A stretch of 64,000 bases of DNA, from assembly GCA_021815445.1 (NCBI GenBank), contig JAKAGM010000001.1, positions 3,447 to 67,446 on the forward strand. Direction: 5' to 3'. The DNA is from a bacterium. GTDB lineage: Bacteria > Patescibacteriota > Patescibacteriia > UBA10025. Positions 6,539 to 51,536 of the stretch are shown here, piece by piece. A program made the translations under genes and the position numbers. Numbering within the stretch: position 1 is the stretch's first letter; every line of letters starts with the position of its first letter. The notes beneath the pieces are model-generated. The model was not told the origin of the DNA. It saw only the letters and a list, made by a program, of their open reading frames with translations, and did no database searches.

Positions 6539-6988
6539 ATGAATTGCTTATCCTGCGGCAAAGAAGACACGAAGGTCACTGATTCACGGGTAGTAAACGA
6601 TGGAATGGCGATTCGGAGACGTCGAGAATGCCAAAAATGCGGTTTCCGGTTCTCTACCTACGAAGAAGTTGAAATTTTAAATCTTTCAGTGGTCAAAAGG
6701 GACGGGGTCCATGAGCCCTATTCACGCGAGAAGGTTGAGCGCGGACTCAAAAAAGCTCTCGAGAAACGGCCGATAACGCAAGAGAAGTTCCGCATGCTCA
6801 TTGCAAACATTGAGCGGGATATTCAGACCGAGGCGAAATCCGACGAGGTGACCAGCAGCCAGATCGGCGAGATTATCATGCGCCATCTCAAAAAAGCCGA
6901 TAAGGTCGCATATATCAGGTTCGCGTCAGTGTATAAATCTTTTGAGGATATCGATTCTTTTAAACAAGAAATTAAAAAAATCACTTAA
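6539..6988 (+). CDS. nrdR: Transcriptional repressor NrdR
   Basis: N-terminal zinc ribbon (CLSCG...CQKCG) plus an ATP-cone domain; directly precedes the ribonucleotide reductase gene. Confidence 0.9.
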   Translation: MNCLSCGKEDTKVTDSRVVNDGMAIRRRRECQKCGFRFSTYEEVEILNLSVVKRDGVHEPYSREKVERGLKKALEKRPITQEKFRMLIANIERDIQTEAKSDEVTSSQIGEIIMRHLKKADKVAYIRFASVYKSFEDIDSFKQEIKKIT

Positions 6989-24030: not shown

Positions 24031-24044
24031 GGAATTAGAGTAGT

Positions 24045-24072
24045 GTATCAGTGTGTTAACACATTGATACAT
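24045..24072 (+). promoter_or_regulatory. Palindromic operator-like site A (TGTATCAGTGTGTTAACACATTGATACA)
   Basis: A 28-bp near-perfect palindrome centred on GTTAAC. It is one of four related sites; this one lies about 165 bp upstream of the small membrane protein gene at 24240. Confidence 0.55.
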
Positions 24073-38551: not shown

Positions 38552-38578
38552 AAAGCGTTGAAAAAGGAATAGCGTGGG

Positions 38579-38608
38579 TATATCAACGTGTTAACACATT
38601 AATACATT
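38579..38608 (+). promoter_or_regulatory. Palindromic operator-like site B (GTATATCAACGTGTTAACACATTAATACAT)
   Basis: Same GTTAAC-centred palindrome family; ends 22 bp upstream of the ATG at 38630. Confidence 0.5.
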
Positions 38609-39280: not shown

Positions 39281-39318
39281 TGTACTTTGAGGGCCATGAT
39301 GTAGCGTCGCATATGTTA

Positions 39319-39348
39319 GTGTTCCGATGTGTTAACACACTAGTACAT
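39319..39348 (+). promoter_or_regulatory. Palindromic operator-like site C (GTGTTCCGATGTGTTAACACACTAGTACAT)
   Basis: Same palindrome family; about 160 bp upstream of malQ. Confidence 0.5.
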
Positions 39349-43231: not shown

Positions 43232-43641
43232 TGGTGGAGATGAGGGGAATTGCACCCCTGTCCAATATACGAACCAGTCAACGTCTCCAAGCTATCCTAT
43301 TTTAGCGTGGTCGATGGCAGAAGTCAAAATAGGAAAAAGGTCCTGCCATCCGAGTCTCGTGGTACGGCCGGGAGCAAGAGACACGCTCGTCGGTCGTCCT
43401 CCGTTTGTGACACCTCCGACCTTCTCAGGAGGAATCAGAAGGGGAGATGGTTATCGGTTTTTACGCGACAACAGGCGCAAAGGAAGGCGCAAATACGCTT
43501 GCAAGTGCGGTCTTCGCTTTGCTTACAAATGATTTGGCATTTGTCTAATTGGAGCCAGTTTAACGTCATGAACTGCCGTGGACGGCTTGCAGTTGAGATG
43601 GCAATGTACACTGTCGATTATAAGCATCCCCATGATGCGCC
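43232..43641 (-). ncRNA. ssrA: tmRNA (ssrA)
   Basis: Minus strand 5' end GGGGATGCTTATAATCGACAG... pairs with the 3' end ...AGGGGTGCAATTCCCCTCATCTCCACCA. The acceptor stem has the G3:U70 Ala-identity pair, with T-arm and encoded CCA. It is located 25 nt downstream of smpB on the same strand. Confidence 0.8.
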
Positions 43642-43665
43642 TGATTGCGGAAAGGTTGAAAATGA

Positions 43666-44109
43666 TCAGTAGTCCAGCGCTTGCCTGATCCGCCGGTCAA
43701 CCTCGCGTTTCTTAATGGTTTCGCGCTTATCCTGTTTCTTCTTCCCGCGCGCCAAACCCAGCTCAACCTTGATCAAGCTACCCTTAGTATAGACAGAAAG
43801 CGGAATAAGTGTCAAGCCTGCCGAAGCCATCTTCCCGATCAATGATTTGATGTCCTCACGCTTCACAAGCAGCTTCTTTTCTCGGTCAGGATCCTCGTGG
43901 GATTCTTTCGAAGCACGCTGGTATCTCGCTATATGGCAGCCGATCAGCCAGAGTTCATTGCCGCGCATGCTCACATAACTTCCCATCAGAGTACAGTTGC
44001 CCAGCTTGACCGACTTTACCTCTGCGCCTCTCAATACAATACCGGCCTCAATTTTTTCGAGGATTGTGTAGTTGAAATAGCCTTTTTTGTTCTTAGCGAG
44101 GGTAGGCAT
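43666..44109 (-). CDS. smpB: SsrA-binding protein SmpB
   Basis: Motifs GIVLRGAEVKS, GYVSMRGNELWL and the basic C-terminal tail KKKQDKRETIKKREVDRRIR. Confidence 0.9.
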   Translation of the reverse strand: MPTLAKNKKGYFNYTILEKIEAGIVLRGAEVKSVKLGNCTLMGSYVSMRGNELWLIGCHIARYQRASKESHEDPDREKKLLVKREDIKSLIGKMASAGLTLIPLSVYTKGSLIKVELGLARGKKKQDKRETIKKREVDRRIRQALDY

Positions 44110-44182
44110 AGGAATATGAGTAGTATACAGGATTTTTGAACTGTGGATAATCGGGGTTGACGTCCGAAGTTGTTTGGGTGTA

Positions 44183-44212
44183 GTGTATCAATGTGTTAAC
44201 ACACTAATACAC
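44183..44212 (+). promoter_or_regulatory. Palindromic operator-like site D (GTGTATCAATGTGTTAACACACTAATACAC)
   Basis: The best-formed copy of the palindrome; ends 20 bp upstream of the TrpR-like gene start, so probably autoregulatory. Confidence 0.55.
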
Positions 44213-44232: not shown

Positions 44233-44586
44233 ATGCCAAAGCGTTCGATAGACTGGAACAAAAGAAAAACAAGCGATCTCTTTGAAGCGGTTCTCGCGCT
44301 TAAAACGCAGGATGAGTGCAGGCGTTTTTTCCGTGACCTGTGCACGCTTGAGGAAATTGCCGCACTTGCCGACAGGTGGCAGATGGTCAAAATGATGGTC
44401 CAAGGATATTCATACCGCGATATATCGGCGAAACTCAAAGTGAGCACAACGACTGTTGCCCGTGTCGCGCAGTGGTTCACACGAGGCGAAGAGGGTTATC
44501 GGCTCGTGGTTAAGAGACTGGGGCTCACCAGACTGCCTGAAGCAAAAATTTCTTCAAATCATTATCACCACGCTTCTCTTCACTGA
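44233..44586 (+). CDS. TrpR-like DNA-binding protein (YerC/YecD family)
   Basis: LFEAVLALKTQDECRRFFRDLCTLEEIAALADRWQMVKMMVQGYSYRDISAKLKVSTTTVARVAQW is the hallmark of the Trp-repressor-related YerC/YecD family (HTH). A weak terminator-like hairpin plus T8 follows at about 44626-44656. Confidence 0.7.
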   Translation: MPKRSIDWNKRKTSDLFEAVLALKTQDECRRFFRDLCTLEEIAALADRWQMVKMMVQGYSYRDISAKLKVSTTTVARVAQWFTRGEEGYRLVVKRLGLTRLPEAKISSNHYHHASLH

Positions 44587-44874
44587 AGAGGTGTCGTGAT
44601 GTGGTAGACATTTCACCGCATCCGGAGAAACCCCTTCAGTGCAAGAGGTTTTTTTTGATACATGCGTACCTTGAGAAAATCTTGAGACACGATGGGACGT
44701 GATGACAACCGTTCGCACCGAGAGAGGTGTATGTTGATGCGACAACATAAACATACCCCCTTCTCGTCATTGAGAAGAGCTTGTCGGACTGCTCCTGCAA
44801 TCCGAGACTGTCACCGTCCGGTGGCCGCCCTCACTCTCGAGCTTGCTCATGTTCATTTCATTTGGAGGTGTACC

Positions 44875-45972
44875 GTGTCAAAGCACGAAGCCAGCACGCA
44901 AACAGTGTTCGATCCAATCGGCCAGCGCTATGAAGGCCTCGCCAGGCCGTCAGGACTTCGATACGGCATTATTGAGGTAACAACCCGGTGCCAACTCGCT
45001 TGCCCAGGATGCTACATGGTTCGACGTGGCGCGCTCAATCACGGCAGTTTGTCTTTTGACCAGGCGGTCGGCGTACTTGACCGGTGCTGCGAATATACTG
45101 GCCGAGAGCTCGAAACAATGGACATCCTCGGCGGCGAGCCGCTCCTGTGGCCGCCGCTCAAAGAATACATCGTCGAGCTACTCAATCGCGGCATCAAACC
45201 TTGGCTTTTTACCAACATGCTGACGATCACGCCGTCACTGGCCCGGTGGCTCTTTGAGCGGAAGGTGCATATCACCGGCAAGCTGAACGTGGATCCGTCT
45301 GATCCTGCTCAGCTCTCTGTCCAAGCGGCGATGATTGGCCGGAACGAGCGCGTAGCCCGCCGAATGGCCGCGGCAATTTCTGTTTGGCTTGGAGTCGGAT
45401 ATCGCAACCCATTATTCCGGCTCCAAAATCTGGTTCGTCAGGCAAACATCGGATTTGTGCCCGATTACTACCGCTGGTGCCTCGAACAAGGGATTGGGAC
45501 GGATCTTGAACTCATGGGTTCCGGCGAAACGGTAGGCGCGGAGTACTATGCGGTGGCGCCGACTCCGAAACAAGTCGCCCGCATGATAGAAGCGATCCAT
45601 GCGGTTCGGCGCGAGTACGGTTTGCCGGAAGCTGAAGTGCTGATGCCCCACGTCTTTGGATCCTGCCCTTTTTATGACAAGGGGCTCTACTTCGCCGCCG
45701 ACTGTTCAATCCGTGCCTGTTCCAACTCCACGGTCACGCTTGCACACTTAAGCGACCAGGATCCGATCCGGAAAGCCTATGAGTCGCCGCTCATCTGCCG
45801 CCGGCTCAGCCTGTGCCGTGAGGTGGTAGGAGAGCCATGCCGTTCGTGCGATCGGTGGGAACGGTGCCGCGGTGGCTGCCGGGCAACCGTGGAAGGGATG
45901 GGCGACCCGTACGGCGGATATACGCTTTGTCCGCTTCCTTACCTCGGCAATGGTAAGCCCAAAGTCGGCTAG
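44875..45972 (+). CDS. Radical SAM enzyme with C-terminal SPASM domain (peptide/protein-modifying maturase class)
   Basis: CQLACPGC (CxxxCxxC) radical SAM cluster motif. The C-terminal C...C...CRSCDRWERCRGGC fits the SPASM CX2CX5CX3C signature. The GTG start with GGAGG RBS at 44875 is preferred; in-frame ATGs at 44692/44731 would add a Cys-containing 50-60-aa N-terminal extension. Confidence 0.7.
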   Translation: MSKHEASTQTVFDPIGQRYEGLARPSGLRYGIIEVTTRCQLACPGCYMVRRGALNHGSLSFDQAVGVLDRCCEYTGRELETMDILGGEPLLWPPLKEYIVELLNRGIKPWLFTNMLTITPSLARWLFERKVHITGKLNVDPSDPAQLSVQAAMIGRNERVARRMAAAISVWLGVGYRNPLFRLQNLVRQANIGFVPDYYRWCLEQGIGTDLELMGSGETVGAEYYAVAPTPKQVARMIEAIHAVRREYGLPEAEVLMPHVFGSCPFYDKGLYFAADCSIRACSNSTVTLAHLSDQDPIRKAYESPLICRRLSLCREVVGEPCRSCDRWERCRGGCRATVEGMGDPYGGYTLCPLPYLGNGKPKVG

Positions 45973-46045
45973 GCAGCACGCAATAGTAGCGGGGGGCTGG
46001 AATAATGAACTTCTAAAGTTCCGGCCCCCCTATTTTCTCTCGACT

Positions 46046-46588
46046 ATGCGTCAAAAAATTATTACAACAGCTCAAAAGAAATTACTAGAGCTTAACCGCC
46101 GATACAACGGGTTCATGGCAGTCATCCTTGATAACTGGCGCGGTTATCGTTTTATTTACGACACTGTCGATGTTCGACGATGCCAGAATAATTGCACGCA
46201 GTGTCCGCTTTTCCGATTGTTAGCAAATGAAAAAGACGGCGCTTTTACAGCTCGCCTTCTCCGGGCGTCGCCTGCCGACCGCAGACTGTTCGGTCCCCAA
46301 AAGTATCTCAATTGTAAAACAATTTCGCAGTACCGAATGTGTTATAAGAATTTTATTGCTCAAAAAATAGCAACGCAAAAAGAATTGACGGCCGAATTAC
46401 GGCTTGTTCAAGGACTCAGGGTGCTCTACGCCAAAGAGCGAGATCCCTTGCTTGTCGAACAAGAGATAAAAAGGAATATTATCAACTTTTCTGCTCGATG
46501 GTCGCCACTCTCAGCAGCAGCCGGCAAGAGCCGGCGCAAATCATTTGACAGCTTGTTGAAAAAGGATTACACTTTATCCACATTATGA
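46046..46588 (+). CDS. Hypothetical Cys-containing protein (about 180 aa) in AT-rich DNA
   Basis: CQNNCTQC and CKTISQYRMC motifs; start ambiguous (alternative ATG at 45950 overlapping the rSAM gene); strongly AT-rich relative to its neighbours. Confidence 0.35.
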   Translation: MRQKIITTAQKKLLELNRRYNGFMAVILDNWRGYRFIYDTVDVRRCQNNCTQCPLFRLLANEKDGAFTARLLRASPADRRLFGPQKYLNCKTISQYRMCYKNFIAQKIATQKELTAELRLVQGLRVLYAKERDPLLVEQEIKRNIINFSARWSPLSAAAGKSRRKSFDSLLKKDYTLSTL

Positions 46589-46772
46589 ATCTAACTTCAC
46601 TCCAACAGAAAAACCTGAAGATGTTCCGCTGGAACTTTCGTCACTATGGCGGCAGGGTTTCTTTACTGTTTGGAGTAGATATGGCGTAATAACGAATTCC
46701 AAAATATTCCACAGAAAGAAACCTCAAGCTGCCGCTCGAGGTTTTTTGGTAAATAATTAATTTTAAGAAAGT

Positions 46773-47663
46773 ATGAACACACGCACGATTTTCATCGGAA
46801 CTATCGGCACATTCCGCGTCGAGATCCCGGTTATAGAAATAGGCTCAGGAGAGCCGAAAGGTTTGATTGTGGCCGTTCAACACGGGGGTGAGCTAAGCCC
46901 GTTATGGATTATCAAAGAACTTATCAACGCTCCCCCACGTTCGGGCGCCATGACGCTAATTCCCGTAGCAAATCCATTCGGATTCGTGTTTGGGGAGCGA
47001 AATGAGGTCATCGAACAGAAAGATCCGAACCGCCAATATCCGGGGAGGGCAAGCGGTGATTTCTCAGCCAGGATCGCGGATAAAATTTTTTCCCTGGCAA
47101 AGGAGGCTGACTTCGTTGTCGACCTGCACACGTTTACGCGCCAAGCTCCATTCCTTGTCGGCTATGAACGGGGCGGGATATCAGACGGTAACGATGTGGA
47201 AAAACTCATCCAACTGCTAGGGCCGGATGTCGTATGGACGGTTGATGAAAAGCAAGGAGAGGATAGGCGGTTTGCCGGAAGTTTTGACGGCGCTCTGGGG
47301 CGGGAGGGCGTCCCGTCGGTATTCATTGAAATGCCGAACTACCAGATGATTTCACAGGATCTCATTGTCCGTATCGCTTCCGGTATCAGAAACGTATTCG
47401 AAGGGTACTCGTCGCCTTTTCAAAAAGGGAAGGAGATCAAAAGGTTCTCGGCAAAGTATCTGTACGCGGATGATGCTGGGATCTTTGATCCGACGGTGAA
47501 ACCGCTTGAAACAGTTGTTGCGGGACAGGAGATTGGCACGCTTTATCTTCTGCCAAATTTCAAAAAGCAAAAGGTGATCACGCCCATCGGAGGGACGGTA
47601 CTCACGGTAAAAGGAAAGGATGTGATAAGGACAGGGACAAAACTTGCCAGTATCGGAGTGTAA
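46773..47663 (+). CDS. Zinc-dependent deacylase/carboxypeptidase-like protein of the AstE/AspA (succinylglutamate desuccinylase/aspartoacylase, M14-like) family
   Basis: N-terminal VQHGGE (HGxE zinc ligands) and a later VVDLHT (second His ligand), with a C-terminal beta-rich domain typical of the family. Confidence 0.55.
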   Translation: MNTRTIFIGTIGTFRVEIPVIEIGSGEPKGLIVAVQHGGELSPLWIIKELINAPPRSGAMTLIPVANPFGFVFGERNEVIEQKDPNRQYPGRASGDFSARIADKIFSLAKEADFVVDLHTFTRQAPFLVGYERGGISDGNDVEKLIQLLGPDVVWTVDEKQGEDRRFAGSFDGALGREGVPSVFIEMPNYQMISQDLIVRIASGIRNVFEGYSSPFQKGKEIKRFSAKYLYADDAGIFDPTVKPLETVVAGQEIGTLYLLPNFKKQKVITPIGGTVLTVKGKDVIRTGTKLASIGV

Positions 47664-47714
47664 ACCGCACGAAACAGAAAACAACAGAGAACGTTCACAA
47701 TTCACGAAAGGGGA

Positions 47715-49097
47715 GTGGTCATGAGACCAACTCAAGAGCTGTTCAGCGATTTGCTGGCACAGGGATGCTCGTTTCGGTATCAGCCCGAGCGTTTCTGCGA
47801 ACTCGAAGGCGGAGGGCATCCGTATCCTTCACTCACACGTACAGTTTCCACACCTTCCGGCGACATGATCGAGGAGCTTATCCAGCCGGTGCTGCAACCG
47901 ATTGTCCTCGACCAACGTCTTGTCGCCAATGTACGGAAAGCTTCGGCGGCGTGGCCAACGTTTCTCGGGGTCCAACTCGAGCTTTTCCGCGCGGCGCAAA
48001 AAGGCGAGCTCAGCGGATCGGACGTCGCACTCATTAGGGGTATGTGCACCGAGCGGGAATGGAAGTGCGGACTCGTAGAGCCCGGCTACCGGACGATTCA
48101 CCCGTTTATCCGCCTGGACGCCGTGTTGACCGATGACGGTTTTAAAGTCATCGATATCAATTCGACGCGTCCGGCCGGCGTAGGGGACCTGCTCGGTTTC
48201 CACGTGGCGATGAACGGCAGTGATGGTTCGGGCATCAAACCGTTTCCCATCGGGTGCTCATTCAGCCGCATCGTGTCTTCGTGCGTGGGCGACTGGGCCT
48301 CGGCAAAACATCTGCCGGGCGAGTCGATTCCCGTTGATATTGTCGTGCGGCACACGGACGGTGACTGGAACAATTTCCGGAACCTGAGCCGCCAGCTGGC
48401 ACGTTCAGGCCTGAATACCCGGCTCATCGAACCAGATGAACTGAGGAGCGGAGAGCCAAGCGCCATTGTGCGGGGTCGCATCAAGGAAGGCGACCCGGCG
48501 TATGCCATCTTGCAGCAGGGTTACCCGAATGAGCGCTGCGTGATGTCTCCGCTCTATCGCCGTTTCCTCGGAAACAAAGTGTGGATGTATCTTTTCCGGA
48601 TTCCGCCGTTCTCCGAGCATTTCAAGCGGGTAATGGGCGAGGCATACCAGCTTTTTGACCGTCTGTTCCCGCCCATAGGGCTCTTTTCCGGCACCTCCGT
48701 TCGTTTCCCGGAAGGCTTCCTGGATATCGCGAAACTCGATCGGCAAGAATGGGTCCTCAAAGATCCGGCGAGCTCGTCAGGGCGCAGGATGTATCTCGGG
48801 TACCTGATGGGAAAGAAAAAATGGGCCGATGCGCTTGCGCAGATGCAGGACGGCTGGATCGTGCAGCGTTTCTACCGCGCGACCGAAAAACTTGCAGTTG
48901 CCGGTCCGTGTGGCGAGCCGATTGAAGAATCGCTCTTCACGAAGTACGGCATCTACATTTTCGGTTCGGAGCTTGCCGGACTGGAATTCAACGCCCGGAA
49001 AATGCCCGTTGTCCATGGTGCGCGGAATACATACTGCAACGCCGTGTACGAAACCGCAGGCCCCTCATCGTGCGCAGGAGAATTGGGGGCTCAATGA
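47715..49097 (+). CDS. ATP-grasp-type amidoligase resembling the glutathionylspermidine-synthetase / circularly-permuted ATP-grasp families
   Basis: C-terminal region WVLKDPASSSGRRMYLG...DGWIVQRFY...KYGIYIFGSELAGLEFNARKMPVVHGARNT resembles the W.LKP..GREG / ..G.W.V.G...G.G.RE...FxPH pattern of the GSP-synthetase ATP-grasp family. Family call from memory. Confidence 0.45.
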   Translation: MVMRPTQELFSDLLAQGCSFRYQPERFCELEGGGHPYPSLTRTVSTPSGDMIEELIQPVLQPIVLDQRLVANVRKASAAWPTFLGVQLELFRAAQKGELSGSDVALIRGMCTEREWKCGLVEPGYRTIHPFIRLDAVLTDDGFKVIDINSTRPAGVGDLLGFHVAMNGSDGSGIKPFPIGCSFSRIVSSCVGDWASAKHLPGESIPVDIVVRHTDGDWNNFRNLSRQLARSGLNTRLIEPDELRSGEPSAIVRGRIKEGDPAYAILQQGYPNERCVMSPLYRRFLGNKVWMYLFRIPPFSEHFKRVMGEAYQLFDRLFPPIGLFSGTSVRFPEGFLDIAKLDRQEWVLKDPASSSGRRMYLGYLMGKKKWADALAQMQDGWIVQRFYRATEKLAVAGPCGEPIEESLFTKYGIYIFGSELAGLEFNARKMPVVHGARNTYCNAVYETAGPSSCAGELGAQ

Positions 49098-49483
49098 TCC
49101 CCATGGTCAGCAAGTATTGGCTTGTCCGCGTTTGGGATATTAAAGATGTCCTGAGCGACTACGGGTTGACACCTGAGCAGACTGCGACTGTATGCGGTAC
49201 TATCGTGAACAACACGTGCATCCGCTTTACAATACAGTCGCAGTATCAGTGCGGAGTTGGCGAACCTCACGTAGTACCTTTTACCGGCGAGTACGTGGGT
49301 GTGTTTCCCGCCTTGATCCGATCGTCGCTCCTCGAGCACCATGTCATCCTCCGGCGATACAGGAGAATGATATTCCGACTCTGGAATCGGAAAGTCGCTA
49401 CTATGTATCTCGGGACGCTGGTGTGCGCGGAGCACTTTACGTACGTTAAGTCTATTCCCCTGGACTATTGGGGACCATGGTAA
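49094..49483 (+). CDS. Hypothetical small protein (about 130 aa) translationally coupled to the ATP-grasp gene (ATGA overlap)
   Basis: MIPMVSKYWLVRVWDIKDVLSDYGLTPEQTATVCGTIVNNTCIRFTIQSQYQCGVGEP...; no known motif. Confidence 0.35.
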   Translation: MIPMVSKYWLVRVWDIKDVLSDYGLTPEQTATVCGTIVNNTCIRFTIQSQYQCGVGEPHVVPFTGEYVGVFPALIRSSLLEHHVILRRYRRMIFRLWNRKVATMYLGTLVCAEHFTYVKSIPLDYWGPW

Positions 49484-49683
49484 CGCAAAGCAGAGTGGCA
49501 GTGGAACCTGATCGAAAGATTTGGGTCTGTAAGATCAGTAGGTTCCTCTGCACACTCTGCAGAATGCAGGCTAGGCGATCCGTCTCGGATTGTCAAGCCG
49601 ACAGGCAGAGCTTTTTTGAGCTATCTGCCTGTTTTTCTTGACAACTTTTTACACGCAGTATACAGTGCTCACAAACGCAGATT

Positions 49684-49740
49684 CCCCCCGTAGTGCAGTC
49701 TGGTAGCACGCTCGGTTCGGGACCGAGAAGTCGCTAGTTC
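49684..49740 (+). pseudogene. 5' fragment of a tRNA-Pro(CGG)-like gene (acceptor 5' strand, D-arm, anticodon arm, variable loop), truncated before the T-arm
   Basis: CCCCCCG-TA-GTGC-AGTCTGGTA-GCAC-G-CTCGG-TTCGGGA-CCGAG-AAGTC folds as tRNA positions 1-48, but no T-arm or 3' acceptor strand follows. It is flanked by a promoter-like TTGACA(49638)-15-TATACA and a downstream nested hairpin plus T-run (49744-49811). Confidence 0.5.
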
Positions 49741-49883
49741 TCCGCCACCTAAATATCCAAAGAGGCGGATCCGCCTCTGGCGGAAAATCCGGCTGGTGGC
49801 CCTCACTTTTTTCCCAATGATCGTTGCAGGACGGTCTTTTTTTCTTACCTCTTTCTCGATTCCTTGATATACTGTACACATCT

Positions 49884-51536
49884 ATGACGCTCAAAGGATT
49901 GATAGCGAGACAACTCACCAAAGATATTCTGGCGCTCTGGCCGGATGCTCGAGAAGCCCTCGAACAGGGTTCCTTTGTTGTTGATATCAGCTATCCGCCC
50001 GATTCGAAGTTCGGCCACTATACCACGAACATTGCCCTCCGGCTTAGCGCTGTTGCTAAAATGGCTCCCCAGGAGACTGCAAAAAAGATTGCTGATCGCT
50101 TCTCGCTTCCCGCTGTGCAAAAAACCGAGGTGGCGGGCCCCGGCTTCGTGAACTTTTTCCTCAAAGAATCCTGGCTTTCACGCCAGCCGGAAAAGATTAT
50201 CAAGGAAAAGAAAGCATTCGGTAAAAGCGTGCTCGGCAAAGGCCAGCGCGTTGACGTCGAGTTCATCTCAGCCAACCCCACGGGTCCGCTGACGCTCGGC
50301 AATGGCAGGGGAGCATTCATGGGCGATACATTGGCAAACGTTCTCTCGGCCGCAGGATATGTCGTGAAGCGGGATTATTATGTCAACGACATGGGCAACC
50401 AGGTCAATATCCTCGCAGAATCAGTCCTGCGCAGGTATTGGATTTCTCAGGGCATCCGCATGGAATATCCCGCATACTGTTATCAGGGGGAGTACATCGA
50501 CGATATAGCAAAAAGCCTCTACCTCCCAAATTACAATCTGGGGAAAACGTCGCTTTCCGACATTCGGGACAAGATCAAGGGGAGAATCCTCAAGCGAATG
50601 CTTGGCGGTATCCAACGTTTTGTCACGAAGCGGCTCGGGATCAAGTTCGATATGTGGTTTTCTGAACGGAGCCTCTATGTCTCGGGAAAAATGGACAAGA
50701 TGCTCGACACGCTCCGCTCGCTCGACCTCATTTTTGAGAAGGAAGATGCGATCTGGTTCCGTACGACTCAGTTCGGCGACGACAAAGACCGCGTATTGAT
50801 CCGCGCTAACAGCGAACCGACATATTTTCTCCCAGACATTGCCTACCATCACGATAAGTTCACCCGGAGGAAATTCAACAGAGTGATTAACTTCCTCGGC
50901 GCCGACCACGCGGGGTACGCGCCGAGACTGCAGGCGGCTATGAAGGCGCTCGGGCACGGCGGCAAGCTGGATATTATCGTATTCCAGCTCGTGAAGCTTA
51001 TCTCCGGCGGCAAGGAGGTCCGCATGTCGAAACGCAAAGGCATGTTTGTCACTTTCGAGGAGCTTATCGACGATGTGGGGCCTGATGCGGCGCGATACTT
51101 TTTCCTCATGCACGCGCCGAACACGCACATGGACTTCGATCTTGATTTAGCCAAGAAAAAAACGCAGGATAATCCCGTGTATTACGTCCAGTATGCTCAC
51201 GCGCGTATTTGTAGTATACTCAGGAATGCGAAAGGACTGCCGGTACTTCAAAAAGCAACGGTGGAAAGCAGCGTCCACCCAAGCCAGTTCAATCTGATGG
51301 TCAAACTTGCCCAGTGGCCTGAGATAGTCGAAGATATCGCCCAGACCTATGCGATGCACCAGCTGCCCACGTACGCGTATGAGCTTGCAACCCTTTTCCA
51401 TGAGTTTTATACTCATGTACGCGTGATTGACCAGGGTGCTGTAGCGAAAATGCCTTTTGAGCTTATCCAAGCAGCAAAAATCGTGCTCGCCAACGTGCTT
51501 ACCATGATGGGCATTTCAGCGCCTGAAAAAATGTAA
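49884..51536 (+). CDS. argS: Arginine--tRNA ligase
   Basis: Motifs SANPTGPLTLGNGRG (HIGH-region equivalent of ArgRS) and the Rossmann catalytic core; C-terminal anticodon-binding DALR-type domain. Confidence 0.85.
   Translation: MTLKGLIARQLTKDILALWPDAREALEQGSFVVDISYPPDSKFGHYTTNIALRLSAVAKMAPQETAKKIADRFSLPAVQKTEVAGPGFVNFFLKESWLSRQPEKIIKEKKAFGKSVLGKGQRVDVEFISANPTGPLTLGNGRGAFMGDTLANVLSAAGYVVKRDYYVNDMGNQVNILAESVLRRYWISQGIRMEYPAYCYQGEYIDDIAKSLYLPNYNLGKTSLSDIRDKIKGRILKRMLGGIQRFVTKRLGIKFDMWFSERSLYVSGKMDKMLDTLRSLDLIFEKEDAIWFRTTQFGDDKDRVLIRANSEPTYFLPDIAYHHDKFTRRKFNRVINFLGADHAGYAPRLQAAMKALGHGGKLDIIVFQLVKLISGGKEVRMSKRKGMFVTFEELIDDVGPDAARYFFLMHAPNTHMDFDLDLAKKKTQDNPVYYVQYAHARICSILRNAKGLPVLQKATVESSVHPSQFNLMVKLAQWPEIVEDIAQTYAMHQLPTYAYELATLFHEFYTHVRVIDQGAVAKMPFELIQAAKIVLANVLTMMGISAPEKM

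What the first reader, a model, noticed from the sequence alone, without database searches (positions are those of the whole stretch)
44692..49483. Uncharacterised rSAM/SPASM, ATP-grasp ligase, AstE/AspA-like hydrolase and small Cys-protein locus next to smpB-tmRNA
Five co-directional genes sit between the TrpR-like regulator gene and a promoter-driven tRNA-Pro fragment. Two are enzymes of classes that act on peptides or proteins. The radical SAM/SPASM enzyme (CxxxCxxC plus CX2CX5CX3C) belongs to the group that forms thioether or C-C crosslinks in ribosomal peptides, as in sactipeptides, ranthipeptides and the QhpD maturase. The GSP-synthetase-like ATP-grasp is an amidoligase. A third gene encodes an M14-like AstE/AspA zinc hydrolase that could remove or trim an acyl or peptidyl group. 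Two small proteins with clustered Cys (CQNNCTQC..CKTISQYRMC; CGTIVNNTC..QYQCG) are candidate substrates or scaffolds. The 46000-46600 gene is strongly AT-rich compared with its neighbours, suggesting acquisition. I do not recognise this gene combination as a described RiPP class or cofactor-maturation system. It may be a new peptide or small-molecule modification pathway.
Basis: partly seen in the sequence, partly recalled or inferred. Interest (0 to 1): 0.7.

Follow-up and report, generated by a model that had tools for sequence, protein, structure and literature searches.

The report
Two histidine-regulated enzyme modules, juxtaposed
The supposed five-gene peptide-modification cluster is really two separate, uncharacterised enzyme pairs of Patescibacteria sitting side by side: a radical SAM enzyme with a small partner protein, and a zinc hydrolase with an ATP-dependent ligase. 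Both appear to be switched by amino-acid (probably histidine or arginine) supply, through a HisR-type repressor and a previously undescribed leader-peptide attenuator.

Summary

Module A is the HisR(YerC)-like regulator, a novel rSAM/SPASM enzyme and the 180-aa Cys protein. These stay together in 16-17 of 19 Patescibacteria loci. Published-type HisR boxes lie upstream in 7 of those loci.

Module B is the AstE-like Zn amidohydrolase and a glutathione-synthetase/GspS-fold ATP-grasp ligase. They are adjacent in all 19 loci that hold enough sequence, usually without module A.

The fifth ORF (137/129 aa) is an orphan.

- it has its own promoter and is nearly leaderless;
- its peptide carries an aromatic-Arg/His motif;
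- an antiterminator strand inside the ORF pairs with the terminator's 5' arm in 16 of 17 leaders.

The same leader drives module B in most genomes and module A in two. The modules therefore probably share an amino-acid-responsive (His/Arg) regulon.

No RiPP precursor is conserved next to the rSAM gene. The biochemical substrates remain unknown.

The locus is a new variant of known kinds, of moderate to high interest.

The parts
44233..44586 (+). HisR (YerC/YecD, TrpR-family) regulator gene
   Evidence: TIGR02531 scores 87.4 bits (cut-off 42.2) and PF01371 E 5e-24. E 7e-18 to PDB 3G1C, the E. eligens HisR (PMC9413887). It lies directly upstream of the rSAM gene in 16 of 19 loci.
44875..45972 (+). 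radical SAM/SPASM enzyme of a novel Patescibacteria-wide subfamily (365 aa; the ORF is open in frame from 44692)
   Evidence: It is 57-71% identical to homologues in many Patescibacteria lineages. No curated subfamily reaches its cut-off.
46046..46588 (+). p180, the conserved partner protein of the rSAM enzyme. It carries CX3CX2C plus an invariant Cys90 (LNCK) and a DxWRGYRF motif, and its fold matches nothing known.
46545..46573 (+). sigma-70-type promoter of the leader (TTGACA-17-TACACT), inside the 3' end of the p180 gene
   Evidence: Equivalent TTGACA/-10 pairs lie 5-15 nt before the leader ATG in the other loci.
46585..46689 (+). 34-codon leader ORF MNLTSLQQKNLKMFRWNFRHYGGRVSLLFGVDMA. Arg19 and His20 codons are at 46639-46644.
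   Evidence: It is conserved at peptide level upstream of AstE in 13 loci and upstream of the rSAM gene in L007 and L009. His is 3.0-fold and Arg 1.9-fold enriched.
46654..46666 (+). antiterminator strand (R2, AGGGTTTCTTTAC) inside the leader ORF. It pairs with 46713-46725.
   Evidence: Duplex -16 to -17 kcal/mol, z -4.1 against shuffles. The truncated transcript folds into this helix.
46713..46748 (+). intrinsic terminator. The 5' arm is shared with the antiterminator; the stem is 46721-46742, followed by a T-run.
46773..47663 (+). AstE/AspA-family zinc amidohydrolase with an intact active site
47721..49097 (+). ATP-grasp carboxylate-amine ligase with a circularly permuted glutathione-synthetase/GspS-like fold (458 aa from ATG 47721)
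49094..49483 (+). orphan ORF (129 aa; 137 aa from GTG 49070), with no evidence that it belongs to either module
49433..49452 (.). HisR-box-like palindrome CACTTTACGTACGTTAAGTC (2 mismatches to the published consensus); significance uncertain
49638..49843 (+). promoter, tRNA-like fragment (49690-49746) and terminator (49819-49843) upstream of argS (49884-51536)

Best explanation
The locus holds two independent, uncharacterised two-gene enzyme modules that lie side by side in this Kerfeldbacteria-like genome. They belong to one amino-acid-responsive regulon, not to one biosynthetic cluster.

**Module A.** A HisR-family repressor gene is followed by a novel rSAM/SPASM enzyme and its dedicated 150-180-aa partner protein, p180. 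Shown here: the triad is conserved across Patescibacteria, and in many genomes canonical HisR boxes precede it. Inferred: L-histidine with HisR represses the operon, and the rSAM enzyme acts on or with p180, whose invariant Cys90/Lys91 loop is the candidate site.

**Module B.** An AstE-type zinc amidohydrolase and a glutathione-synthetase-fold ATP-grasp ligase form an obligate pair. Inferred: they break and make an amide bond between a carboxylate and an amino acid (an N-acyl, gamma-glutamyl-like or dipeptide conjugate). This would serve salvage, trapping or buffering of an amino acid.

**Control of module B.** A leader of its own controls transcription: a promoter, a nearly leaderless 23-34-codon ORF and an intrinsic terminator.
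- Shown: the 3' third of the ORF is complementary to the 5' arm of the terminator, giving an antiterminator.
- Shown: the peptide keeps an aromatic-Arg/His motif 10-25 nt upstream of that strand.
- Inferred, by trp/his-type geometry:
  - A ribosome pausing at the Arg/His codons, when charged tRNA is scarce, leaves the antiterminator free, and the operon is read through.
  - A ribosome that runs to the stop codon covers it, and the terminator forms.
For: **Module split**
- TrpR-like + rSAM + p180 are adjacent in 16-17 of 19 genome loci, and none has AstE or ATP-grasp nearby.
- AstE + ATP-grasp are adjacent in 16 of 16 loci with upstream sequence, and also in L046, L048 and L049. In L049 the order is reversed.
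- The syntenic relatives L025 and L026 read smpB-hisR-[93-aa gene, two tRNA-His]-leader-AstE-ATPg-argS, without rSAM/p180.

**HisR**
- The regulator matches TIGR02531 above its cut-off and the solved HisR structure 3G1C.
- YerC is HisR, an L-His-dependent repressor with the box cacTTTAnnnnnnTAAAgtg (PMC9413887).
- Thirteen perfect-core boxes occur in 376 kb of loci. Eleven sit directly upstream of hisR in 7 hisR-rSAM-p180 loci, often as tandems 18 bp apart. One lies between hisR and AstE in L003.

**Leader**
- Peptide-level conservation persists across loci whose DNA no longer aligns.
- The R2:R3 duplex is -9.7 to -27.8 kcal/mol, with z of -1.7 or lower in 16 of 17 leaders.
- L001's terminator arm pairs best with its own R2, which is covariation.
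- A promoter lies 5-15 nt before the ATG.
- Every His/Arg-type leader (15) has at least one His and one Arg.
- Two tRNA-His genes lie directly upstream of the leader in L025 and L026.
- argS follows the ATP-grasp gene after 20-34 nt in L046 and L025.
- In L049 two ATP-grasp paralogues carry leaders rich in Phe/Tyr/Trp and in Ile/Leu/Val respectively. This fits codon-based attenuation with class-specific leaders.

**Link between the modules**
- The same leader family precedes rSAM-p180 in L007 and L009 (nhmmer E 2e-9 and 4e-4).
- L001 (leader-AstE-ATPg) and L009 (leader-rSAM-p180) are otherwise syntenic.

**Enzyme competence**
- The AstE zinc, catalytic and carboxylate-binding residues are invariant or have one exception in 15 homologues.
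- The ATP-grasp fold is confident, and a DIN...RPAG motif, lysines and a glutamate are invariant.
Against: - In the window itself no canonical HisR box lies upstream of hisR or of the rSAM gene. Only a 2-mismatch box occurs, at 49433.
- The leaders hold only 1-3 His and 1-6 Arg codons, not the runs typical of his/phe/leu attenuators. Conservation of the N-terminal MNxxFxQxN and of the flanking aromatics suggests that the nascent peptide itself matters.
- No experiment, substrate or transcript data exist.
- Whether genomes with one module carry the other elsewhere was not determined.
- A ligase and a hydrolase induced together on starvation do not give an obvious net supply of amino acid.
- One leader (L049a) shows weak R2:R3 pairing (z -0.7).
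- L003 and L038 have a different small ORF upstream of AstE.
Confidence: 0.5

Rival explanations
1. One reading: all five genes form one new RiPP or cofactor-maturation pathway. The rSAM/SPASM enzyme crosslinks a small Cys protein, the ATP-grasp enzyme adds residues, and the AstE-like enzyme trims.
For: The genes are co-directional and adjacent in the window. The rSAM enzyme has a full SPASM domain, and its weak best hits are the peptide maturases PqqE and MftC. p180 is a conserved Cys-containing neighbour. The same leader or regulator can precede either half.
Against: The five genes occur together only here. The two halves occur apart in 19 and 18 loci. The second Cys protein is an orphan. 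No short precursor is conserved by the rSAM gene. A promoter and a terminator separate the halves. The rSAM family (253 or more clusters) is far commoner than the ATP-grasp family (32-34 clusters).
Confidence: 0.08
2. The 34-aa ORF is a RiPP precursor, for example an aromatic-X-basic cyclophane or an ATP-grasp-modified peptide. The hairpin after it only sets the precursor:enzyme stoichiometry.
For: The ORF is short, conserved at peptide level, and lies immediately upstream of modifying-enzyme genes, including the rSAM gene in L007 and L009. It has alternating aromatic and basic residues. Precursor genes followed by leaky terminators are common in RiPP clusters (general knowledge).
Against: The ORF is absent beside the rSAM gene in 17 of 19 loci. 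It is complementary to the terminator 5' arm in 16 of 17 cases, which a precursor would not need. It shows no conserved Cys, Ser/Thr or Asp/Glu pattern for thioether or graspetide links. Its length and C-terminus vary freely (23-34 aa). The ATP-grasp enzyme is of the glutathione-synthetase type, not the MdnB/C type. L049 paralogues have quite different peptides, rich in Ile/Leu/Val or in aromatics.
Confidence: 0.1
3. The leader is a metabolite-sensing arrest peptide (TnaC/SpeFL-like), not a sensor of tRNA charging. The nascent aromatic-Arg/His motif binds a free small molecule in the exit tunnel and stalls the ribosome, which opens the antiterminator.
For: Peptide-level conservation covers the N-terminus and the flanking aromatics. 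There are only 1-3 His codons. SpeFL is also 34 aa, with an HIRRxxH sensor and a Phe-rich effector domain (bioRxiv 10.1101/604074). L001 reads YRRHFHFF.
Against: There is no sequence homology to SpeFL or TnaC. The stall would have to occur mid-ORF, not at the stop codon, for the geometry to work. Induction by a high ligand level would run opposite to HisR repression if the ligand is His. The L049 leaders look like classical Ile/Leu/Val and aromatic codon leaders.
Confidence: 0.2
4. Pure chance juxtaposition: the two modules have unrelated functions and unrelated regulation. The shared leader and hisR neighbourhood only reflect local synteny and rearrangement.
For: The modules occur independently. 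The window has no canonical HisR box. hisR, smpB and argS synteny is lineage-wide.
Against: The homologous leader drives A in L007 and L009, and B elsewhere, at the same syntenic site next to SHMT. A perfect HisR box lies upstream of AstE in L003. hisR is adjacent to both modules in different genomes.
Confidence: 0.15

Closest known systems
HisR (YerC) histidine repressor regulons of Firmicutes and other phyla (PMC9413887)
   Same: The regulator family is the same (TIGR02531; similar to 3G1C). The 20-bp box core CTTTA-N6-TAAAG is the same, often in tandem and upstream of hisR itself (autoregulation).
   Different: Known regulons hold his biosynthesis genes and histidine transporters. Here the regulated genes are a radical SAM/SPASM enzyme with an unknown partner protein, and in L003 an AstE/ATP-grasp pair, in organisms generally held to lack His biosynthesis. 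Patescibacteria were not covered in that study. The window genome itself lacks the canonical box.
Leader-peptide transcription attenuators (trp, his, pheST, ilv/leu operons; Rfam His_leader RF00514)
   Same: There is a short ORF with an alternative antiterminator/terminator. The control codons lie about 10-25 nt upstream of the antiterminator strand, and the regulated genes are related to amino acids (argS lies downstream in some loci).
   Different: There is no Rfam match. The mRNA is nearly leaderless. There are only 1-3 His and 1-6 Arg codons, embedded in a conserved aromatic motif. The antiterminator strand lies inside the ORF. The host is Patescibacteria, and the regulated genes are not biosynthetic.
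SpeFL and TnaC ligand-sensing arrest peptides
   Same: The length is similar (SpeFL has 34 aa). The sequences are rich in basic His/Arg and aromatic residues, and they control premature transcription termination of downstream genes.
   Different: No homology is detectable. SpeFL and TnaC act at the stop codon and through Rho, whereas here an intrinsic terminator and a mid-ORF pause are implied.
Eukaryotic-type glutathione synthetase, glutathionylspermidine synthetase and E. coli YjfC/YgiC (circularly permuted ATP-grasp ligases)
   Same: The whole-chain fold matches (Foldseek E 6e-15 to 1e-8, TM up to 0.67). The protein is presumably an acyl-phosphate-forming carboxylate-amine ligase. In GspS the ligase is likewise coupled to an amidase of opposite activity.
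   Different: Identity is 10-14%. The window protein has no Pfam match. The partner hydrolase is an M14-like AstE enzyme, not a CHAP amidase, and is a separate polypeptide. The substrates are unknown.
AstE / aspartoacylase / DoeB N-acyl-amino-acid amidohydrolases
   Same: The catalytic domain PF24827 is present, with HxxE...H zinc ligands, a catalytic Glu and an Asn-Arg carboxylate clamp.
   Different: The protein scores far below every equivalog cut-off (DoeB 36 against 403). It is obligately paired with an ATP-grasp ligase, and no AST or ectoine pathway genes lie nearby.
rSAM/SPASM protein and peptide maturases with a dedicated substrate (QhpD-QhpC, anSME-sulfatase, PqqE-PqqA, MftC-MftA)
   Same: It has a CX3CX2C cluster plus a 7-Cys SPASM domain, and an adjacent conserved small protein with an invariant Cys.
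   Different: No subfamily HMM reaches its cut-off. The partner is a 150-180-aa folded protein whose fold matches nothing known. No RRE or PqqD-type domain was detected. The operon is regulated by HisR.

Membership tests
radical SAM / SPASM superfamily | CX3CX2C [4Fe-4S]/SAM motif | tested here: met
   C39, C43 and C46 are invariant in 26 homologues. PF04055 scores 29.4 bits against a cut-off of 29.5.
radical SAM / SPASM superfamily | C-terminal 7-Cys SPASM motif (C..G..C, CX2CX5CX3C, C) | tested here: met
   C264, C282, C322, C325, C331, C335 and C352 are invariant. However, TIGR04085 scores only 17.3 against a cut-off of 27.
characterised SPASM subfamilies (PqqE, MftC, anSME, sacti-/ranthipeptide maturases) | score above the curated equivalog cut-off | tested here: not met
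   The best hits are PqqE at 34.6 (cut-off 381) and MftC at 34.3 (cut-off 265). Against the PDB, only PqqE at E 7e-6 and ChlB at E 3e-4 appear.
RiPP biosynthetic gene cluster | short precursor peptide gene conserved next to the maturase | tested here: not met
   No conserved small ORF lies between hisR and the rSAM gene in 17 loci. The conserved neighbour is a folded 150-180-aa protein.
RiPP biosynthetic gene cluster | maturase and tailoring enzymes co-conserved | tested here: not met
   rSAM and AstE/ATP-grasp genes occur apart in every related locus.
AstE/AspA zinc amidohydrolases (PF24827) | HMM above cut-off and HxxE...H zinc ligands plus catalytic Glu | tested here: met
   61.8 bits against a cut-off of 25. 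H37, E40, H119, E186, N86 and R87 are invariant or have one exception in 15 homologues.
GSP_synth / CP_ATPgrasp / GSH_synth_ATP (circularly permuted ATP-grasp) | family HMM match | tested here: not met
   The window protein has no Pfam or NCBIfam hit. Only distant relatives hit CP_ATPgrasp_1/2 or GSP_synth, near or below their cut-offs.
GSP_synth / CP_ATPgrasp / GSH_synth_ATP (circularly permuted ATP-grasp) | fold | tested here: met
   Foldseek against the PDB: human, yeast and plant glutathione synthetase at E 6e-15 to 1e-11 (TM 0.54-0.67); YjfC/YgiC at E 4e-11 to 8e-10; GspS at E 3e-9 or weaker. The model has pLDDT 92.8.
GSP_synth / CP_ATPgrasp / GSH_synth_ATP (circularly permuted ATP-grasp) | ATP/Mg2+ ligands in place | tested here: inconclusive
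   D145-I-N147, K255, K286, K408 and E422 are invariant. No residue-level superposition on glutathione synthetase was possible.
HisR (YerC/YecD) repressors | TIGR02531 above cut-off and similarity to the solved HisR structure | tested here: met
   87.4 bits against a cut-off of 42.2. 3G1C matches at E 7e-18.
HisR (YerC/YecD) repressors | cognate 20-bp palindrome upstream of regulated genes | tested here: inconclusive
   The box is present in 7 related hisR-rSAM-p180 loci and in L003. It is not present upstream of hisR or the rSAM gene in the window itself.
HisR (YerC/YecD) repressors | L-histidine as co-repressor | not testable with these tools
   Shown only for R. gnavus HisR (PMC9413887).
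leader-peptide transcription attenuator | short translated ORF, intrinsic terminator and mutually exclusive antiterminator | tested here: met
   Sixteen of 17 leaders have z of -1.7 or lower. Translation is inferred from peptide-level conservation; it was not measured.
leader-peptide transcription attenuator | run of codons for the regulatory amino acid | tested here: inconclusive
   His is enriched 3.0-fold and Arg 1.9-fold, and both are present in all 15 His/Arg-type leaders. There are only 1-3 His codons and no run.
anti-phage defence systems (PADLOC) | match to a defence protein model | tested here: not met
   Only the generic rSAM core matches pVip (27.9 bits). The other four proteins match nothing.

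The most novel reading that the evidence does not exclude
Patescibacteria, which cannot make most amino acids, carry a previously unrecognised amino-acid-responsive regulon. A family of nearly leaderless leader-peptide attenuators has peptides specific to amino-acid classes (His/Arg-aromatic, aromatic, Ile/Leu/Val). These attenuators, together with HisR, switch on AstE-hydrolase/glutathione-synthetase-fold-ligase pairs that form a new ATP-driven route for salvaging or trapping amino acids. In the same regulon, a HisR-controlled radical SAM/SPASM enzyme installs a modification on a partner protein whose fold matches nothing known.
Probability: 0.25. Interest if true: 0.8.

Novelty: new variant of a known kind. 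Interest (0 to 1): 0.6.

Why it matters
Patescibacteria (CPR) make up a large share of bacterial diversity. They have tiny genomes and depend on scavenged amino acids, yet almost nothing is known about how they sense or manage amino-acid supply.

This locus gives three concrete, testable handles:
1. A HisR regulon whose members are not his genes but a highly conserved radical SAM/SPASM enzyme (57-71% identity across CPR lineages) and its partner protein.
2. An obligate hydrolase/ligase pair with no characterised member.
3. A new leader-peptide attenuator family, with variants that look specific to amino-acid classes.

If confirmed, the attenuators would be the first ribosome-mediated attenuators I know of in CPR. 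They would also point directly to the substrates of the enzymes they control.

The result also corrects a tempting but wrong annotation of the locus as a novel RiPP cluster.

Tried and rejected
- **Curated libraries.** Pfam, NCBIfam and PADLOC give nothing for p180, the ATP-grasp protein or the orphan ORF.
- **Sequence search of the PDB.** The ATP-grasp protein has no real hit. The rSAM profile finds only weak ChlB and PqqE matches.
- **Rfam.** The leader region and the argS upstream region match no family above threshold.
- **RNAalifold on a MAFFT alignment of 7 leaders.** It gave no consensus because the terminator arms were misaligned. I replaced it with per-sequence duplex and shuffle analysis. 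No covariance model was built.
- **HisR consensus in the window.** The search returned only chance-level hits.
- **Palindrome upstream of hisR in the window.** I considered the 28-bp palindrome as the local HisR operator. I rejected this because copies precede unrelated genes.
- **Small ORFs between hisR and the rSAM gene.** None is conserved, so there is no precursor candidate.
- **Literature.** Searches for rSAM + Patescibacteria, YerC + radical SAM, and CP-ATP-grasp + succinylglutamate desuccinylase found nothing. Iyer et al. 2009 on amidoligases could not be retrieved, so its content is cited nowhere as evidence.
- **Anti-phage defence.** Rejected.
- **Recent acquisition of the AT-rich p180 gene.** Rejected, because of its conserved position.

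Full report
**What is in the window**

The window comes from a Patescibacteria genome close to Candidatus Kerfeldbacteria. All homologues of the locus proteins carry such names, and the contig on record is 881 kb.

Between smpB/tmRNA (43232-44109) and argS (49884-51536) lie, all on the + strand:
- **TrpR-family gene, 44233-44586.** PF01371, and TIGR02531 yecD_yerC at 87.4 bits against a cut-off of 42.2.
- **Radical SAM/SPASM gene.** The likely start is GTG 44875, behind a GGAGG. The ORF is open from 44692, but homologues begin near 44875.
- **180-aa protein, 46046-46588 ('p180').**
- **AstE/AspA-type hydrolase, 46773-47663.** PF24827, E 8e-17.
- **458-aa protein, 47721-49097.** No Pfam or NCBIfam match.
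- **ORF of 129-137 aa, 49070/49094-49483.**

**The ATP-grasp assignment holds at fold level**

An AlphaFold2 model built on 32 homologues is confident (pLDDT 92.8, pTM 0.92). Foldseek against the PDB gives:
- human, yeast and plant glutathione synthetases, E 6e-15 to 1e-11, TM 0.54-0.67;
- E. coli YjfC/YgiC, E 4e-11 to 8e-10;
- glutathionylspermidine and trypanothione synthetases, E 3e-9 or weaker;
- the CP_ATPgrasp-type protein 3n6x.

A profile search of 1.84 billion representatives finds only 34 close clusters (E < 1e-30). A tail of distant relatives then follows, some touching CP_ATPgrasp_1/2 and GSP_synth at or below threshold. This is a small, Patescibacteria-restricted branch of the circularly permuted ATP-grasp ligases.

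The AstE-like protein keeps its likely active-site residues: the zinc ligands H37, E40 and H119, the catalytic E186 and the N86-R87 carboxylate clamp. These are invariant or have one exception in 15 homologues. The role assigned to each residue rests on general knowledge of the AstE/AspA family.

**The five genes are two modules plus an orphan**

I fetched 19 genome loci through the rSAM protein, and 22 further non-redundant loci through the ATP-grasp family, 18 of which carry the pair.

*Module A.* In the rSAM loci the TrpR-like gene lies immediately upstream in 16 of 19, and p180 immediately downstream in 17 of 19. None has AstE or ATP-grasp nearby. The rSAM protein is 57-71% identical across lineages labelled Buchananbacteria, Doudnabacteria, Gribaldobacteria, Magasanikbacteria, Peribacteria and Gracilibacteria. 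Such conservation is unusual for a RiPP maturase.

*Module B.* AstE and ATP-grasp genes are adjacent in 16 of 16 ATP-grasp loci that hold upstream sequence. They are also adjacent in the more distant L046, L048 and L049. In L049 the order is reversed and a second ATP-grasp paralogue follows. Almost all of these loci lack rSAM/p180.

*Closest relatives.* L025 and L026 read smpB-hisR-[93-aa gene, two tRNA-His]-leader-AstE-ATPg-(M29)-argS-GT4. The slot that rSAM-p180 occupies in the window is empty there.

*The fifth ORF.* It has no homologue in any locus and is a singleton cluster among about 15 billion proteins.

The neighbours are conserved, but as two separate pairs. The rSAM enzyme shows no affinity to sulfatase maturases: no curated subfamily comes near its cut-off, and a family profile finds only weak ChlB and PqqE hits in the PDB.

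**p180 is a folded partner, not a precursor peptide**

Its conserved features are:
- D29-x-W31-R32-G33-Y34-R-F36;
- F82-G83-x-Q85-x-x-L88-N89-C90-K91;
- Y96.

The CX3CX2C triad (C46/C50/C53) is lost in one sub-clade (P0171-P0173), while C90 stays invariant. No conserved small ORF lies between hisR and the rSAM gene in the 17 usual loci.

I infer that p180 is the dedicated substrate or partner of the rSAM enzyme. This is an inference from adjacency only.

**The regulator is a HisR**

A full-text search showed that YerC-family proteins have been characterised as HisR (PMC9413887):
- HisR is an L-histidine-dependent repressor of his biosynthesis and transport genes.
- It binds the 20-bp palindrome cacTTTAnnnnnnTAAAgtg.
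- This was validated in vitro for the R. gnavus protein.

The window protein matches the E. eligens HisR structure 3G1C at E 7e-18.

I scanned the 376 kb of fetched loci for the perfect core CTTTA-N6-TAAAG and found 13 sites. Eleven lie directly upstream of the hisR-like gene of hisR-rSAM-p180 operons (L006, L008 x2, L011, L012 x2, L014, L015 x2, L023 x2). The paired boxes are 18 bp apart. One more lies between hisR and AstE in L003. By my estimate, chance would give about one such site in that much sequence.

In many Patescibacteria the triad is therefore an autoregulated HisR operon, and module B can also carry a HisR box. The window genome itself has no canonical box upstream of hisR or the rSAM gene. 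It has only a 2-mismatch box at 49433-49452.

**A leader-peptide attenuator sits between the modules**

The stop codon of p180 overlaps an ATG (46585) that opens a 34-codon ORF, MNLTSLQQKNLKMFRWNFRHYGGRVSLLFGVDMA. An intrinsic terminator follows (stem 46721-42, then a T-run), 25 nt before the AstE start. A TTGACA-17-TACACT promoter ends 11 nt before the ATG.

*Conservation.* tblastn and nhmmer find the element upstream of AstE in L025, L026, L005 and L001. They also find it upstream of rSAM-p180 in L007 and L009, the two rSAM loci where tblastn found no hisR between the leader and the rSAM gene. In more distant loci the DNA no longer aligns, but the arrangement recurs. L027, L031, L034, L036, L037, L039, L040 and L046 each show:
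- a promoter;
- an ORF of 23-33 codons starting 5-15 nt after the -10 hexamer, so the mRNA is nearly leaderless;
- a terminator.

*Peptide motif.* The peptides share an N-terminal M-N-x-x-F-x-Q-x-N and an aromatic-[RH][RH]-aromatic core. Examples are FRHY, YRRHFHFF, NYHRW, YRRHRIH, RWYHRY, YRRHYW, CRHCH and YHAWHFTRR. His is enriched 3.0-fold (p 7e-6) and Arg 1.9-fold (p 3e-5). Every one of the 15 leaders has both.

*Alternative pairing.* In 16 of 17 leaders examined, the 3' third of the ORF is complementary to the 5' arm of the terminator:
- Duplex energies run from -9.7 to -27.8 kcal/mol.
- z against shuffles runs from -1.7 to -6.8.
- The sequences differ between lineages. For example, GGGTTTCTTT:AAAGAAACCT in the window corresponds to GAAGAGGTATC:GATGCCTCTTC in L001.
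- L001's terminator arm pairs best with its own R2.

Transcripts truncated before the 3' arm fold into this antiterminator in the window, L025 and L001. In L007 and L009 an upstream segment (codons about 7-12) can also pair with R2 at -18.5 kcal/mol. That gives the four-segment layout of the trp attenuator.

*Geometry.* The last Arg/His codon of the motif lies 10-25 nt before R2. In the window, His20 is at 46642-46644 and the R2 core starts at 46654. This matches the trp-leader geometry, recalled from general knowledge. A ribosome paused there leaves R2 free to pair with R3. A ribosome that reaches the stop codon covers R2, and the terminator forms.

Rfam has no family for the element.

**Which signal?**

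His is supported by:
- the HisR association;
- a His in every His/Arg-type leader;
- two tRNA-His genes directly upstream of the leader in L025 and L026.

Arg is supported by:
- the Arg enrichment;
- argS following the ATP-grasp gene after only 20-34 nt in L046 and L025.

In L049 two ATP-grasp paralogues (30% identical) flank AstE, and each has its own promoter, small ORF and terminator. One peptide is rich in Phe/Tyr/Trp (…NSFFGCYFYWF…). The other is rich in Ile/Leu/Val (…IIQLTQSAIIILVVLLII…). This looks like classical codon-based attenuation with leaders specific to amino-acid classes. It suggests that each ligase/hydrolase pair handles the amino-acid class its leader reports.

The small number of His codons and the conserved flanking residues leave room for a nascent-peptide (SpeFL/TnaC-like) component.

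**How the modules relate**

The modules are separable, but they are not unrelated:
- The same leader family drives A in L007 and L009, and B elsewhere.
- L001 (leader-AstE-ATPg) and L009 (leader-rSAM-p180) are otherwise syntenic, between SHMT and a shared 520-590-aa ORF annotated in L001 with Pfam Radical_SAM and Radical_SAM_C.
- hisR precedes A in most genomes, and precedes B in L003, L025 and L026.

My best reading is one amino-acid-responsive regulon with two output modules, brought side by side in this genome.

**Mechanism: what is shown and what is inferred**

Shown:
- gene content and the conservation patterns;
- the folds and active-site conservation;
- the HisR boxes;
- the leader architecture and its alternative pairings.

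Inferred:
- L-His as co-repressor;
- ribosome pausing at Arg/His codons as the switch;
- module B as a make-and-break pair for an amide-linked amino-acid conjugate, used for salvage, trapping or buffering. This rests on analogy with GspS synthetase/amidase and with N-acyl-amino-acid hydrolysis by AstE/AspA/DoeB;
- module A as a protein-directed rSAM modification of p180.

The substrates are unknown.

**Rejected readings**
- A single RiPP pathway.
- The small ORF as a precursor peptide. Its complementarity to the terminator, its variable C-terminus, the lack of cross-linkable residue patterns and its absence beside most rSAM genes all argue against this.
- Anti-phage defence.
- Recent acquisition of the AT-rich gene.

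**Verdict**

The interpretation as one novel peptide-modification cluster is not supported. What is there is still uncharacterised and regulated in an interesting way:
- a HisR-controlled rSAM/SPASM enzyme and partner protein conserved across Patescibacteria;
- a narrow AstE/ATP-grasp pair;
- a new leader-peptide attenuator family.

Noticed in passing
window ~24040-24070, 38575-38605, 39316-39346, 44180-44210; also L043 ~165-195: A 26-30-bp near-perfect palindrome, TGTATCAaTGTGTTAACACAtTGATACA, recurs in intergenic regions upstream of unrelated genes: DUF308/ComEC, an unknown 216-aa protein, 4-alpha-glucanotransferase and hisR. It may be the operator of a global regulator or a repeated palindromic element. 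It is not specific to HisR.
   Followed up: partly
window 49638-49843: A strong promoter (TTGACA-17-TACAGT) is followed by a tRNA-like fragment with intact D and anticodon arms (CGG loop) but a truncated T arm (RF00005 18.9 bits, below threshold). A perfect palindromic hairpin AGAGGCGGATCCGCCTCT and a terminator come next, just upstream of argS. This could be a decayed tRNA-Pro gene, a small RNA or a leader for argS.
   Followed up: partly
window 49433-49452: A HisR-box-like palindrome, CACTTTACGTACGTTAAGTC (core 1 mismatch, full consensus 2 mismatches), lies inside the orphan ORF. At up to 3 mismatches the window has two matches, about the number chance gives (mean 1.8); this is the closer of the two.
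   Followed up: partly
window 44692-44874: The rSAM ORF is open in frame for 61 codons upstream of the likely GTG start. This extension is rich in Arg and His (…DNRSHRERC…RQHKH…) and is not conserved in homologues. It might be a second leader-like ORF fused in frame.
   Followed up: no
L049 3744-8134: Two ATP-grasp paralogues (30% identical) flank the AstE gene. Each is preceded by its own promoter, small ORF and terminator. One leader peptide is rich in Phe/Tyr/Trp and the other in Ile/Leu/Val.
   Followed up: partly
L009 5530-5980: Between the leader and the rSAM gene lie two further small ORFs. One ends …PPNPYPFAGCGAWC. The other is an 82-aa Cys-rich ORF. They were not seen in other loci.
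   Followed up: no
L025 1647-2170; L026 5574-5752: Two tRNA-His(GTG) genes and a conserved 93-aa protein occupy the position that rSAM-p180 holds in the window, directly upstream of the leader.
   Followed up: partly
L001 3430-5637; L003 4187-6318; L007 1-1089; L009 3326-4642: SHMT lies divergently upstream of the leader or hisR, beside loci of either module. In L001 and L003 FolD accompanies it. This may be plain synteny or a link to one-carbon metabolism.
   Followed up: no
L003 6927-6986; L038 ~205-340: Upstream of AstE these two loci carry a different, Gly-rich small ORF (…SLGGxGPH…) in place of the Arg/His-aromatic leader. L003 also has a perfect HisR box at 6868.
   Followed up: no
window 44620-44655: A hairpin plus T-run (AAACCCCTTCAGTGCAAGAGGTTTTTTTT) lies directly after hisR. 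hisR and the rSAM gene may therefore be separated by a partial terminator in this genome.
   Followed up: no
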